Assembly (NCBI RefSeq): GCF_003334405.1
Contig: NZ_QOWM01000003.1
Strand: one strand, 5' to 3'
From: Escherichia coli
Lineage (GTDB): Bacteria > Pseudomonadota > Gammaproteobacteria > Enterobacterales > Enterobacteriaceae
DNA length: 64,000 bases
The stretch's first letter is position 1. Every line of letters begins with the position of its first letter. This document shows, piece by piece, positions 51,519 to 51,654 of the stretch. A program made the translations under genes and the position numbers. The notes beneath the pieces were generated by a model, which saw nothing but the letters and a program-made list of their open reading frames with translations, made no database searches and was not told the DNA's origin.

Positions 51519-51654
51519 ATACTCAACACGATTCACCTCTGTTTCTGTGAAAACTGTGATGAAAATCTGTGATTCAAACAGGTTATTTTGAAAGTAAACA
51601 TCGGTTATGCGATAATCGCGCTAATGTGATGTAAAAAGATACAGGGGTGTAATC

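What the first reader, a model, noticed from the sequence alone, without database searches (positions are those of the whole stretch)
51545..51572. Three direct CTGTGA repeats upstream of ydjF
Seen in sequence: CTGTGA at 51545, 51554 and 51567 within TTTCTGTGAAAACTGTGATGAAAATCTGTGATTCAAACAG, 85 to 110 bp upstream of the ydjF GTG. The ydjL palindrome also carries CTGTG in one arm. Inference: these may be autoregulatory sites for YdjF (DeoR proteins often bind direct repeats) or CRP half-site-like elements (TGTGA).
Basis: seen in the sequence. Interest (0 to 1): 0.3.

Follow-up and report, generated by a model that had tools for sequence, protein, structure and literature searches.

The report
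YdjF operator boxes plus CRP site
The three CTGTGA copies upstream of the E. coli sugar-regulator gene ydjF are real: the outer two are cores of a conserved pair of boxes shared with the ydjL promoter, probably binding sites for YdjF itself, and the middle one is an E. coli-only addition that forms a CRP site already published for this spacer, so this is an ordinary promoter control region.

Summary
CTGTGA sits at 51545, 51554 and 51567 on the + strand, 83-110 bp before the ydjF GTG.

The three copies are not equivalent:
- **Copy 3** is nearly invariant in 23 enterobacterial loci, as AAATCTGTGATTCAGACAT.
- **Copy 1** is conserved as CTGTGT.
- **Copy 2** exists only in E. coli.

ATCTGTG-N16-TTGA occurs exactly twice in the 64-kb window, at the ydjF and ydjL promoters. 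In both promoters a second TGTG lies 21-22 bp further upstream. ATCTGT boxes in the same layout travel with syntenic ydj clusters into Clostridia, which lack CRP. The cluster's own DeoR-family regulator, YdjF, is therefore the most likely binder; no binding data exist.

Copy 2 plus TCTGT of copy 3 (51555-51570) is the CRP box listed for ydjF in a published genomic SELEX table. It scores 8.3 bits, is centred near -61, and has no counterpart outside E. coli.

The conserved block just 5' of copy 1 is complementary to the ydjF Shine-Dalgarno and start region. This pairing is kept by compensatory changes across phyla. It probably silences ydjF translation on read-through operon mRNA.

Overall this is an ordinary control region and a new member of known kinds. 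Interest is modest.

The parts
51545..51550 (+). Repeat 1 (CTGTGA), the core of the distal box. It is CTGTGT in every non-E. coli orthologue and its TGTG lies 41-42 nt upstream of the -35 hexamer.
51554..51559 (+). Repeat 2 (CTGTGA), an E. coli-specific copy. It is CTATGA in E. whittamii, CGATGA in Escherichia sp. E1V33, and unrelated sequence elsewhere.
   Evidence: the 50-bp stretch is identical in 4093 of 4329 E. coli genomes that carry it
51567..51572 (+). Repeat 3 (CTGTGA), the core of the proximal box.
51555..51570 (.). CRP box TGTGATGAAAATCTGT, the reverse complement of the published ACAGATTTTCATCACA. Its centre is 51562.5, about -60.5 or -61.5 from the predicted start site.
   Evidence: PMC3105977 Table S3; 8.3 bits with a matrix built from 279 SELEX CRP boxes; not conserved outside E. 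coli
51565..51581 (+). Proximal conserved box ATCTGTGATTCAAACAG (ATCTGTGATTCAGACAT in most genera). ATCTGTG starts 23 nt before the -35 hexamer. This is the candidate YdjF operator.
51588..51616 (+). ydjF promoter: -35 TTGAAA (51588-93), 17-bp spacer, extended -10 TGcGATAAT (51608-16). The predicted start is an A at 51623 or 51624.
   Evidence: same hexamers listed for ydjF in the RpoD holoenzyme SELEX paper PMC3946193; conserved in the alignment. The start site is not mapped.
51526..51547 (+). 5' arm of the fold-back (anti-Shine-Dalgarno), ACACGATTCACCTCTGTTTCTG. It lies upstream of ydjF's own promoter, so it is present only in read-through RNA.
51636..51658 (+). 3' arm of the fold-back, AAGATACAGGGGTGTAATCGTGG. 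It contains the ydjF Shine-Dalgarno sequence and the GTG start codon.
51655..52413 (+). ydjF, a DeoR/GlpR-family regulator (HTH_DeoR plus DeoRC domains).
45055..45113 (+). ydjL promoter control region with the same layout: far box TTGTGATCT (45054-62), palindrome TGTAAAACGCAGAT/ATCTGTGTTTTACA (45067-80 and 45085-98), proximal ATCTGTG (45085-91) 23 nt before the -35 TTGACC (45108-13).

Best explanation
The ydjG-ydjF spacer is a composite control region for ydjF's own sigma-70 promoter.

Repeats 3 and 1 are the cores of a proximal box (ATCTGTG, about -58 to -52) and a distal box (TGTG, about -77) on the same face of the helix, 21-22 bp apart. The ydjL operon promoter has the same two boxes in the same register. 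The most likely binder is the cluster's own DeoR-family regulator YdjF, which would then autoregulate ydjF and control ydjLKJIHG from equivalent positions. I infer it acts as a repressor released by a sugar-phosphate intermediate, as most family members do. Both the identity of the binder and the direction of regulation are inferred, not shown.

Repeat 2 is a recent, E. coli-specific insertion of TGTGA into the variable spacer between the boxes. Together with TCTGT of the proximal box it forms a moderate CRP box centred near -61, the classic class I position. That CRP binds this spacer in vitro is published; any effect in vivo is inferred.

Immediately 5' of repeat 1 lies an anti-Shine-Dalgarno segment that pairs with the ydjF ribosome-binding site only in transcripts that read through from ydjG. 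YdjF would therefore be made mainly from its own promoter (inferred from sequence and folding).
For: Conservation. In 23 enterobacterial loci, block A (ACCTCTGTTTCTGTGTAAAA) and block B (AAATCTGTGATTCAGACATGTTnTTTTGAAAATAAACAT) are nearly invariant, while the 9 bp between them and the flanks are free to vary.

Shared layout.
- TGTG lies 20 and 41-42 nt upstream of the -35 hexamer in both the ydjF and ydjL promoters in nearly all species.
- 27 of 57 same-offset identities, p=0.002.
- ATCTGTG-N16-TTGA occurs twice in 64 kb, at exactly these two promoters, against 0.01 expected. In the orthologous loci it occurs only at those two places.

Not CRP. The conserved box TGTGATTCAGACATGT scores -1.4 bits, and no orthologous position outside E. 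coli exceeds 4.7 bits. No ydjL entry appears in the CRP SELEX table.

The boxes travel with the cluster into taxa without CRP.
- An Anaerostipes-like ydjL upstream region has ATCTGTG, then 21 bp later ATCTGTAAAACAGACAT, then TTGACT-17-TATAAT.
- A Caproiciproducens locus has ATCTTTG, then 20 bp later ATCTTTA, ahead of TTGACT.
- The L038 ydjL promoter carries AAATCTGTTATTCGGACAT, almost the enterobacterial ydjF box.

Family context. YdjF is the only regulator in the cluster and is DeoR/GlpR family. Predicted DeoR-family motifs are tandem repeats (PMC3870299).

CRP. The SELEX-chip entry 'ydjF< <ydjG ACAGATTTTCATCACA 1.85297e6' is the reverse complement of 51555-51570. It scores 8.3 bits, the 27th percentile of SELEX boxes.

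Promoter..

Fold-back.
- E. coli minimum-free-energy z-score of -3.9.
- A 12-bp consensus helix.
- Duplex energies of -22 to -35 kcal/mol, z from -3.6 to -7.0, in all 23 species; the ydjL control has z near 0.
- ydjF ranks 1 of 60 genes in the window.
- Compensatory arm sequences in L037-L040.
- 84% of cells paired against 47-58% in slid controls, with 8 pairs changed on both sides.
Against: - No experiment shows YdjF binding anywhere, and no YdjF paper exists in the searched library.
- The symmetry of the site is unresolved. It can be read as direct repeats two turns apart or as imperfect palindromes: ATCTG-N5-CAGAC in ydjF, ATCTG-N7-CAGAT and CAGAT-N4-ATCTG in ydjL.
- The distal box is degenerate: TGTA in E. 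coli ydjL, AATATA in Symbiopectobacterium, GGTAAA in Agarivorans.
- In ydjF the distal box abuts or overlaps the anti-Shine-Dalgarno arm. In Citrobacter and Klebsiella, TGTAAA itself pairs with the 5' UTR. Its conservation could therefore be at the RNA level.
- One species (K. michiganensis) has ATCTGCT in the proximal box. In L038 the box lies 13 rather than 16 nt from the -35.
- Boxes upstream of the -35 are a more typical position for an activator than for a repressor.
- Start sites are predicted, not mapped.
- The CRP box is only moderate: 44 positions in the window score 8 bits or more. Its right half matches 2 of 5, it has not been tested in vivo, and it is absent from sister species.
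Confidence: 0.6

Rival explanations
1. All three repeats, and the ydjL TGTGA boxes, are CRP half-sites. The region would be a multi-CRP activation module with no role for YdjF.
For: TGTGA is the CRP half-site. CRP SELEX picks up this spacer. The ydjL far box TTTGTGATCT matches the extended left half of the CRP consensus and is invariant.
Against: Right halves are absent. The conserved boxes score -1.4 to 4.5 bits. The half-sites are all in one orientation, which a symmetric CRP dimer does not need. There is no ydjL entry in the SELEX table. The same boxes occur in Clostridial ydj clusters, and Firmicutes lack CRP (the absence of CRP is my own knowledge).
Confidence: 0.08
2. The conserved boxes are bound by some other factor, not YdjF. 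Candidates are a global regulator or a nucleoid protein that recognises ATCTGTG.
For: No binding data tie YdjF to the boxes. ydjF shows small changes in a cpxR deletion (1.9-fold, PMC2731931) and appears as an unconventional LexA ChIP target (PMC3542263), so other factors do touch this region.
Against: The boxes occur only at the two promoters of this cluster within 64 kb. They co-travel with the cluster across phyla, where host global regulators differ. The LexA-like site is elsewhere (51627-51646) and is E. coli-specific.
Confidence: 0.15
3. The conservation upstream of the promoter is entirely at the RNA level, from structure in the read-through ydjG-ydjF transcript. The CTGTG words would have no protein-binding role.
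For: The 5' part of block A pairs with the Shine-Dalgarno region. In Citrobacter and Klebsiella the pairing extends through TGTAAA of the distal box.
Against: The proximal box (repeat 3) is not part of the helix. The ydjL promoter has the same boxes but no fold-back (z near 0). Clostridial loci keep the boxes without an anti-Shine-Dalgarno segment.
Confidence: 0.1
4. The three copies are a chance cluster in AT-rich intergenic DNA with no function.
For: A triple cluster of some hexamer occurs in 26% of simulated 64-kb windows. Repeat 2 is not conserved.
Against: Blocks A and B are nearly invariant between variable flanks. The layout is shared with the ydjL promoter. CRP binding in vitro is published. 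The 50-bp stretch is identical in 95% of E. coli genomes that carry it.
Confidence: 0.03

Closest known systems
Class I CRP-dependent promoters, with the CRP site centred at -61.5 as in lac P1 (position rule from my own knowledge; periodic upstream positions also stated in PMC3105977)
   Same: A 16-bp TGTGA-N6-TCACA-like box (TGTGATGAAAATCTGT) lies about 61 bp upstream of a predicted sigma-70 start site. The box was recovered by CRP genomic SELEX.
   Different: Only one half-site is good (7 of 10 core matches, 8.3 bits). There is no in vivo test. The box is confined to E. coli and overlaps a conserved box that is not a CRP site.
Operators of DeoR/GlpR-family sugar regulators. These include the GlpR tandem operators, the AgaR repeated CTTTC-type sites and the E. 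coli DeoR palindromes (my own knowledge), and the predicted DeoR-family RhaR motifs, described as two imperfect direct repeats with 10-11 bp periodicity (PMC3870299).
   Same: The regulator gene sits inside the catabolic cluster. Repeated short boxes in helical phase lie upstream of both the regulator gene and the catabolic operon. The boxes are conserved with the cluster.
   Different: The ATCTGTG core is unlike any DeoR-family operator I know. The spacing is two turns (21-22 bp) rather than one. The boxes lie upstream of the -35 rather than over the promoter. YdjF scores below the cut-off of every named NCBIfam equivalog, so no operator can be transferred by orthology.
GalR operator OE at -60.5 of the gal promoters, adjacent to a CRP site (my own knowledge)
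   Same: A sugar-specific repressor site centred about 60 bp upstream of the start would act together with, or against, CRP. The ydjL palindrome and the ydjF CRP box are both centred 25.5 bp before the -35 hexamer.
   Different: GalR is a LacI-family protein and works by looping to a second operator inside galE. No downstream partner operator is evident here.
IS10/Tn10 'fold-back inhibition' of transposase translation in read-through transcripts (Davis, Simons and Kleckner 1985; my own knowledge; a library search found no paper)
   Same: A segment upstream of the gene's own start site is complementary to its ribosome-binding site. Only transcripts from outside promoters can form the occluding helix, and transcripts from the gene's own promoter start inside the loop.
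   Different: Here the protected gene is a chromosomal regulator at the end of a sugar operon, not a transposase. The loop is about 90 nt and holds a whole promoter. The effect on translation is untested.

Membership tests
CRP binding site (class I) | Match to the 16-bp TGTGA-N6-TCACA matrix | tested here: met
   51555-51570 scores 8.3 bits with a matrix from 279 SELEX boxes, the 27th percentile of those boxes. This is moderate: 44 positions in the window score 8 bits or more. The other two repeats, taken as left halves, score 2.1 bits and below 2 bits.
CRP binding site (class I) | Binding by cAMP-CRP | not testable with these tools
   Published in vitro: a genomic SELEX-chip peak is assigned to the ydjG-ydjF spacer with this box (PMC3105977 Table S3). 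No footprint has been done and this promoter was not in their lacZ test set.
CRP binding site (class I) | Centre at -61.5, -71.5 or a further helical repeat upstream of the start site | tested here: inconclusive
   The centre at 51562.5 is -60.5 or -61.5 if transcription starts at the A at 51623 or 51624. That start is predicted from the -10 hexamer and has not been mapped.
CRP binding site (class I) | Conservation of the site in related genomes | tested here: not met
   The orthologous position scores 4.7 bits in E. whittamii, 2.3 in Escherichia sp. E1V33, and nothing in 20 other genera or species. Within E. coli it is fixed.
Operator of the cluster's DeoR-family regulator (YdjF regulon) | Same motif upstream of the regulator gene and of the regulated catabolic operon | tested here: met
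   ATCTGTG-N16-TTGA occurs only at the ydjF and ydjL promoters in 64 kb. TGTG lies at offsets 20 and 41-42 in both. Same-offset identity has p=0.002. The ydjF-ydjE spacer has no box.
Operator of the cluster's DeoR-family regulator (YdjF regulon) | Motif conserved wherever the regulator and cluster are conserved, independent of host | tested here: met
   This holds in 23 enterobacterial loci, in Agarivorans, and in metagenomic, Bacilli-like and Clostridial syntenic clusters with YdjF at 58-72% identity. The distal box is degenerate in some.
Operator of the cluster's DeoR-family regulator (YdjF regulon) | Repeat or dyad structure compatible with an oligomeric helix-turn-helix protein | tested here: inconclusive
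   There are direct TGTG repeats 21-22 bp apart and imperfect palindromes. The two readings could not be separated.
Operator of the cluster's DeoR-family regulator (YdjF regulon) | Binding by YdjF and box-dependent regulation | not testable with these tools
   No publication on YdjF-DNA binding was found. YdjF is listed as uncharacterised in PMC4797297.
Fold-back (anti-Shine-Dalgarno) occlusion of translation in read-through transcripts | Upstream segment complementary to the ribosome-binding site, beyond chance | tested here: met
   The E. coli duplex is -28.4 kcal/mol, rank 1 of 60 genes, z=-4.0. Z-scores run from -3.6 to -7.0 in 23 species. The ydjL control is near 0.
Fold-back (anti-Shine-Dalgarno) occlusion of translation in read-through transcripts | Pairing kept through compensatory changes | tested here: met
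   Arm pairs differ across lineages: ACCTCTGTTTC/GAAACAGAGGT, AAACCTCCGCTTCTC/GAGGAATGGAGGTTT and TTTCCCCATT/AATGGGGAA. 84% of cells pair against 47-58% in slid controls, and 8 pairs changed on both sides. Caveats: I anchored the alignment on the complementary CC/GG, and only three or four lineages are independent.
Fold-back (anti-Shine-Dalgarno) occlusion of translation in read-through transcripts | 5' arm lies upstream of the gene's own start site, with no terminator in between | tested here: met
   The 5' arm (51526-51547) lies 41 bp upstream of the -35 hexamer. No terminator-like site was found in 51400-51750. The order of elements is the same in L037-L040. The start site is predicted only.
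Fold-back (anti-Shine-Dalgarno) occlusion of translation in read-through transcripts | Reduced translation from read-through RNA | not testable with these tools
   Folding prediction only: the probability that the SD-to-start stretch is unpaired is 0.07-0.32 in read-through RNA and 0.36-0.56 in own-promoter RNA, across 12 species.

The most novel reading that the evidence does not exclude
The conserved block that begins just 5' of repeat 1 may be an anti-Shine-Dalgarno element that makes ydjF translation depend on where the transcript started. Operon read-through mRNA would fold back over the ydjF ribosome-binding site. RNA from ydjF's own promoter starts inside the loop and would be translated.

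This would be an IS10-like 'fold-back inhibition' device built into a chromosomal sugar-catabolic cluster. It insulates the regulator's dosage from induction of its own operon. It has been kept through compensatory changes while the cluster moved between Gammaproteobacteria and Bacilli-like hosts.
Probability: 0.5. Interest if true: 0.55.

Novelty: new member of a known kind. Interest (0 to 1): 0.35.

Why it matters
YdjF is one of the last uncharacterised DeoR-family regulators of E. coli K-12, and the substrate of the ydjLKJIHG pathway is still uncertain. A concrete operator prediction turns 'unknown regulator' into a direct experiment: ATCTGTG boxes at -55 and -77 of two promoters, conserved across phyla. 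It also gives a search motif for the regulon.

The work separates an ancient, cluster-borne control layer from a recent E. coli-specific CRP layer. This is a small, clean example of how a horizontally acquired operon becomes wired into the host's catabolite control.

The fold-back element, if real, shows how a regulator gene at the tail of its own operon can be kept from being co-induced with it.

None of this is surprising in kind.

Tried and rejected
- **Rfam scan** of 51300-52700 at E<=1 found nothing.
- **Cra, TyrR and CpxR readings, by eye.** GATTCAG of the proximal box equals a Cra half-site, TGTAAA...TTTACA in the ydjL palindrome resembles a TyrR box, and GTAAA-N5-GTTAT resembles a CpxR box. 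I rejected all three. The spacings are wrong, the partner halves are absent, or the words are not conserved. The ydjL box lacks GATTCAG.
- **GlpR-like palindrome.** ATGTT...AACAT overlaps the ydjF -35, but its register differs in ydjL. I left it as a lead only.
- **Extension of the fold-back into the variable flanks** is not significant (mean z=-0.56; cognate and non-cognate flanks have the same energy). Only the core helix is supported. Pairing with the start codon is lineage-specific; E. coli has CACGATT/AATCGTG.
- **Fold-back at ydjL** is absent.
- **Boxes in the ydjF-ydjE spacer**: none.
- **A first composite pattern** had the wrong gap length and found nothing. It was corrected.
- **Literature.** Searches for 'b1770' and for 'fold-back inhibition' returned nothing useful. 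Searches on ydjG, ydjH and ydjI returned mostly the unrelated Bacillus genes of the same names.
- **A first supplement look-up** timed out and was repeated successfully.

Full report
**Observation.** The window is E. coli K-12-like. It carries ydjL-ydjK-ydjJ-ydjI-ydjH-ydjG-ydjF-ydjE on the + strand. CTGTGA occurs at 51545, 51554 and 51567 in the 136-bp ydjG-ydjF spacer, 83-110 bp before the ydjF GTG at 51655.

The word is not common in the window: 18 copies on both strands against 25 expected. Three copies within 28 bp never arose in 300 simulated windows. A triple cluster of some hexamer arises in about a quarter of simulations, however, so the cluster alone proves little. A fourth TGTGA, preceded by A, lies at 51625.

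**Promoter context.** A near-consensus sigma-70 promoter lies just downstream: TTGAAA (51588-93), a 17-bp spacer, then TGcGATAAT. The same hexamers are listed for ydjF among promoters bound by RpoD holoenzyme alone (PMC3946193). All of its elements are conserved in the orthologues. The start site is therefore predicted at the A at 51623 or 51624. This places the repeats at about -78 to -51.

**Conservation splits the three repeats.** I fetched 22 enterobacterial loci with the same gene order, from Escherichia, Citrobacter, Klebsiella, Raoultella, Yokenella, Budvicia, Serratia and others. I aligned the spacers.

Two blocks are nearly invariant between freely varying flanks:
- Block A is ACCTCTGTTTCTGTGTAAAA.
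- Block B is AAATCTGTGATTCAGACATGTTnTTTTGAAAATAAACAT.

The repeats map onto these blocks as follows:
- Repeat 3 is inside block B and is kept in 21 of 23 sequences.
- Repeat 1 is inside block A but reads CTGTGT everywhere except E. coli.
- Repeat 2 lies in the variable 9-bp gap and exists only in E. coli. It is CTATGA in E. whittamii and CGATGA in Escherichia sp. E1V33.

Within E. coli the 50-bp stretch is identical in 4093 of the 4329 complete genomes that carry it.

**The CRP part is already in the literature.** Shimada et al. 2011 list ydjF among targets predicted from CRP genomic SELEX. Their Table S3 gives the box ACAGATTTTCATCACA at 1.85297 Mb for 'ydjF< <ydjG'. This is the reverse complement of window 51555-51570. 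It consists of repeat 2 as the good half and TCTGT of repeat 3 as the poor half.

I built a matrix from the 279 other 16-mers in that table. With it the box scores 8.3 bits, the 27th percentile of the set. As a control, the known gapA box in the same window scores 16.9 bits.

The centre of the ydjF box falls at -60.5 or -61.5, the classic class I position. The orthologous positions score 4.7 and 2.3 bits in the two sister Escherichia species, and nothing elsewhere. The conserved proximal box, taken as a CRP site, scores -1.4 bits. CRP therefore explains repeat 2 in E. coli and does not explain the conserved blocks.

**The conserved boxes are shared with the ydjL promoter.** The ydjL upstream region has a conserved block ending at a TTGACC -35 hexamer. 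In both promoters ATCTGTG starts exactly 23 nt before the -35 hexamer. A second TGTG lies 21-22 bp further upstream. This holds in nearly every species.

Three statistics support the shared layout:
- The 57 nt upstream of the two -35 hexamers are identical at 27 same-offset positions (p=0.002).
- ATCTGTG-N16-TTGA occurs exactly twice in the 64-kb window, at these two promoters, against 0.01 expected.
- In the orthologous loci the pattern occurs only at those two places.

The ydjF-ydjE spacer has no such box. The other gaps inside the cluster are too short to hold a promoter.

**The boxes travel with the cluster.** YdjF homologues of 58-72% identity sit in the same ydjL...ydjF gene order in several distant genomes. 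These are an Agarivorans genome, two metagenomic contigs, a Neobacillus MAG, and Clostridial genomes (Vallitaleaceae, Caproiciproducens, Anaerostipes-like).

Their promoters again carry ATCTGT or ATCTTT boxes:
- The Anaerostipes-like ydjL upstream region has ATCTGTG, then 21 bp later ATCTGTAAAACAGACAT, then TTGACT-17-TATAAT.
- The Caproiciproducens locus has ATCTTTG, then 20 bp later ATCTTTA, ahead of TTGACT.
- The L038 ydjL promoter carries AAATCTGTTATTCGGACAT, almost the enterobacterial ydjF box.

Firmicutes have no CRP (my own knowledge). A factor encoded by the cluster itself is therefore the economical explanation, and YdjF is the only regulator there. YdjF is DeoR/GlpR family but falls below the cut-off of every named equivalog. 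Comparative work describes DeoR-family motifs as tandem imperfect repeats (PMC3870299).

No experimental work on YdjF binding turned up. The assignment remains an inference, and I put it at about 0.6. I could not decide whether the protein reads direct repeats two turns apart or the imperfect palindromes seen. I also could not decide whether it represses or activates.

**A second layer next to repeat 1.** Folding the spacer as RNA gave an unusually stable structure (z=-3.9). In it, CACGATTCACCTCTGT (51527-42) pairs with ACAGGGGTGTAATCGTG (51641-57), which holds the Shine-Dalgarno sequence and the GTG start codon.

The evidence for this helix is as follows:
- RNAalifold predicts a 12-bp helix between block A and the ribosome-binding site in the 23-sequence alignment.
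- Duplex energies are -22 to -35 kcal/mol, with z from -3.6 to -7.0, in all 23 species. The ydjL promoter region shows nothing comparable.
- Among 60 genes of the window, ydjF ranks first for pairing between upstream sequence and ribosome-binding site. mntP, a riboswitch-controlled gene, ranks third.
- The distant loci keep the pairing with different sequences: TACCTCTGTTT/AAACAGAGGTA, AAACCTCCGCTTCTC/GAGGAATGGAGGTTT and TTTCCCCATT/AATGGGGAA. The three Clostridial loci lack it.
- In an anchored alignment, 84% of cells pair against 47-58% in slid controls, and 8 of 15 pairs changed on both sides. One caveat applies: I chose the anchor from the complementarity itself.

The 5' arm lies upstream of ydjF's own promoter and no terminator is predicted after ydjG. 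Only read-through operon RNA can therefore form the helix. The predicted accessibility of the ribosome-binding site is 0.07-0.32 in read-through RNA and 0.36-0.56 in own-promoter RNA.

This resembles IS10 fold-back inhibition (my own knowledge). It also means part of the conservation around repeat 1 may be at the RNA level rather than from protein binding. Extension of the helix into the variable flanks is not significant.

**Verdict.**
- Repeats 1 and 3 belong to a conserved two-box operator, probably for YdjF.
- Repeat 2 is a young CRP half-site whose box is already published.
- The adjacent anti-Shine-Dalgarno segment is the least expected element.

All are ordinary kinds of bacterial control elements. 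The specific operator and the fold-back appear to be undescribed.

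Noticed in passing
window 51526-51547 and 51636-51658: A conserved anti-Shine-Dalgarno fold-back lies in the ydjG-ydjF spacer. The segment just after the ydjG stop codon is complementary to the ydjF ribosome-binding site and start codon. Compensatory changes keep the pairing in Gammaproteobacteria and Bacilli-like clusters, and it is absent in Clostridial ones.
   Followed up: yes
window 51625-51646: A fourth TGTGA (51625-29) and a degenerate LexA-like box aTGT-N8-ACAG lie near the predicted start site. The sequence is the reverse complement of the 'unconventional LexA target ydjF,ydjK' CCCTGTATCTTTTTACATCA from LexA ChIP-chip (PMC3542263). It is specific to the Escherichia 5' UTR. YdjF also co-clusters with LexA in an expression-based grouping (PMC6055005).
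   Followed up: partly
window 52476-52495: A hairpin, GCGGCAAgtgaatTTGCCGC, sits in the ydjF-ydjE spacer. It is conserved as GCGCGGCAAAA...CTGCCGCG in Citrobacter and Klebsiella. No T-run follows it, and its function is unknown.
   Followed up: no
window 45054-45062: The far box TTTGTGATCT upstream of ydjL is invariant in 21 enterobacterial loci and is kept in Agarivorans and L038. It is a perfect extended CRP left half with no right half (2.9-4.5 bits). It may be a third YdjF box or a CRP half-site.
   Followed up: partly
whole ydj region; E. coli genome collection: The ydjG-ydjF spacer is present in only 4330 of 5426 complete E. coli genomes. One strain (NZ_CP092702.1) has frameshifted ydjG and ydjF and a decayed repeat region.
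   Followed up: no
L037-L043: The gene order ydjL-K-J-I-H-G-F is kept from Enterobacteria to Clostridia, with YdjF at 58-72% identity, which suggests horizontal transfer. L039, L042 and L043 (a metagenomic contig, Caproiciproducens and an Anaerostipes-like contig) have an extra ribulose-phosphate 3-epimerase gene after ydjL, and L041 (Vallitaleaceae) lacks the ydjK transporter gene.
   Followed up: no
window 43946-43961: TGTGATTTTCATCACG between gapA and msrB is the strongest CRP match in the window at 16.9 bits. It equals the published gapA CRP box and served as a positive control for the matrix.
   Followed up: yes
window 55649-55669: The sequence TGATATTGATATGAATGATAT holds three TGATAT copies at the 5' end of ansA on the minus strand. 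It is one of only three triple-hexamer clusters in the window.
   Followed up: no
window 5721-5750: An imperfect tandem repeat, CGATGCCGATAACCCGATGCCGATGCCGAT, lies inside the yoaE coding region.
   Followed up: no
window 40873 (yeaE start) and 821 (mntP start): In the scan for upstream sequence pairing with the ribosome-binding site, yeaE ranks second (-23.9 kcal/mol) and mntP third (-23.7). mntP has a known Mn riboswitch leader (my own knowledge). The yeaE pairing is unexplained.
   Followed up: no
ydjF (literature): ydjF appears with a 1.9-fold change in the cpxR-deletion microarray table of Bury-Mone et al. 2009 (PMC2731931). No convincing conserved CpxR box is present.
   Followed up: partly
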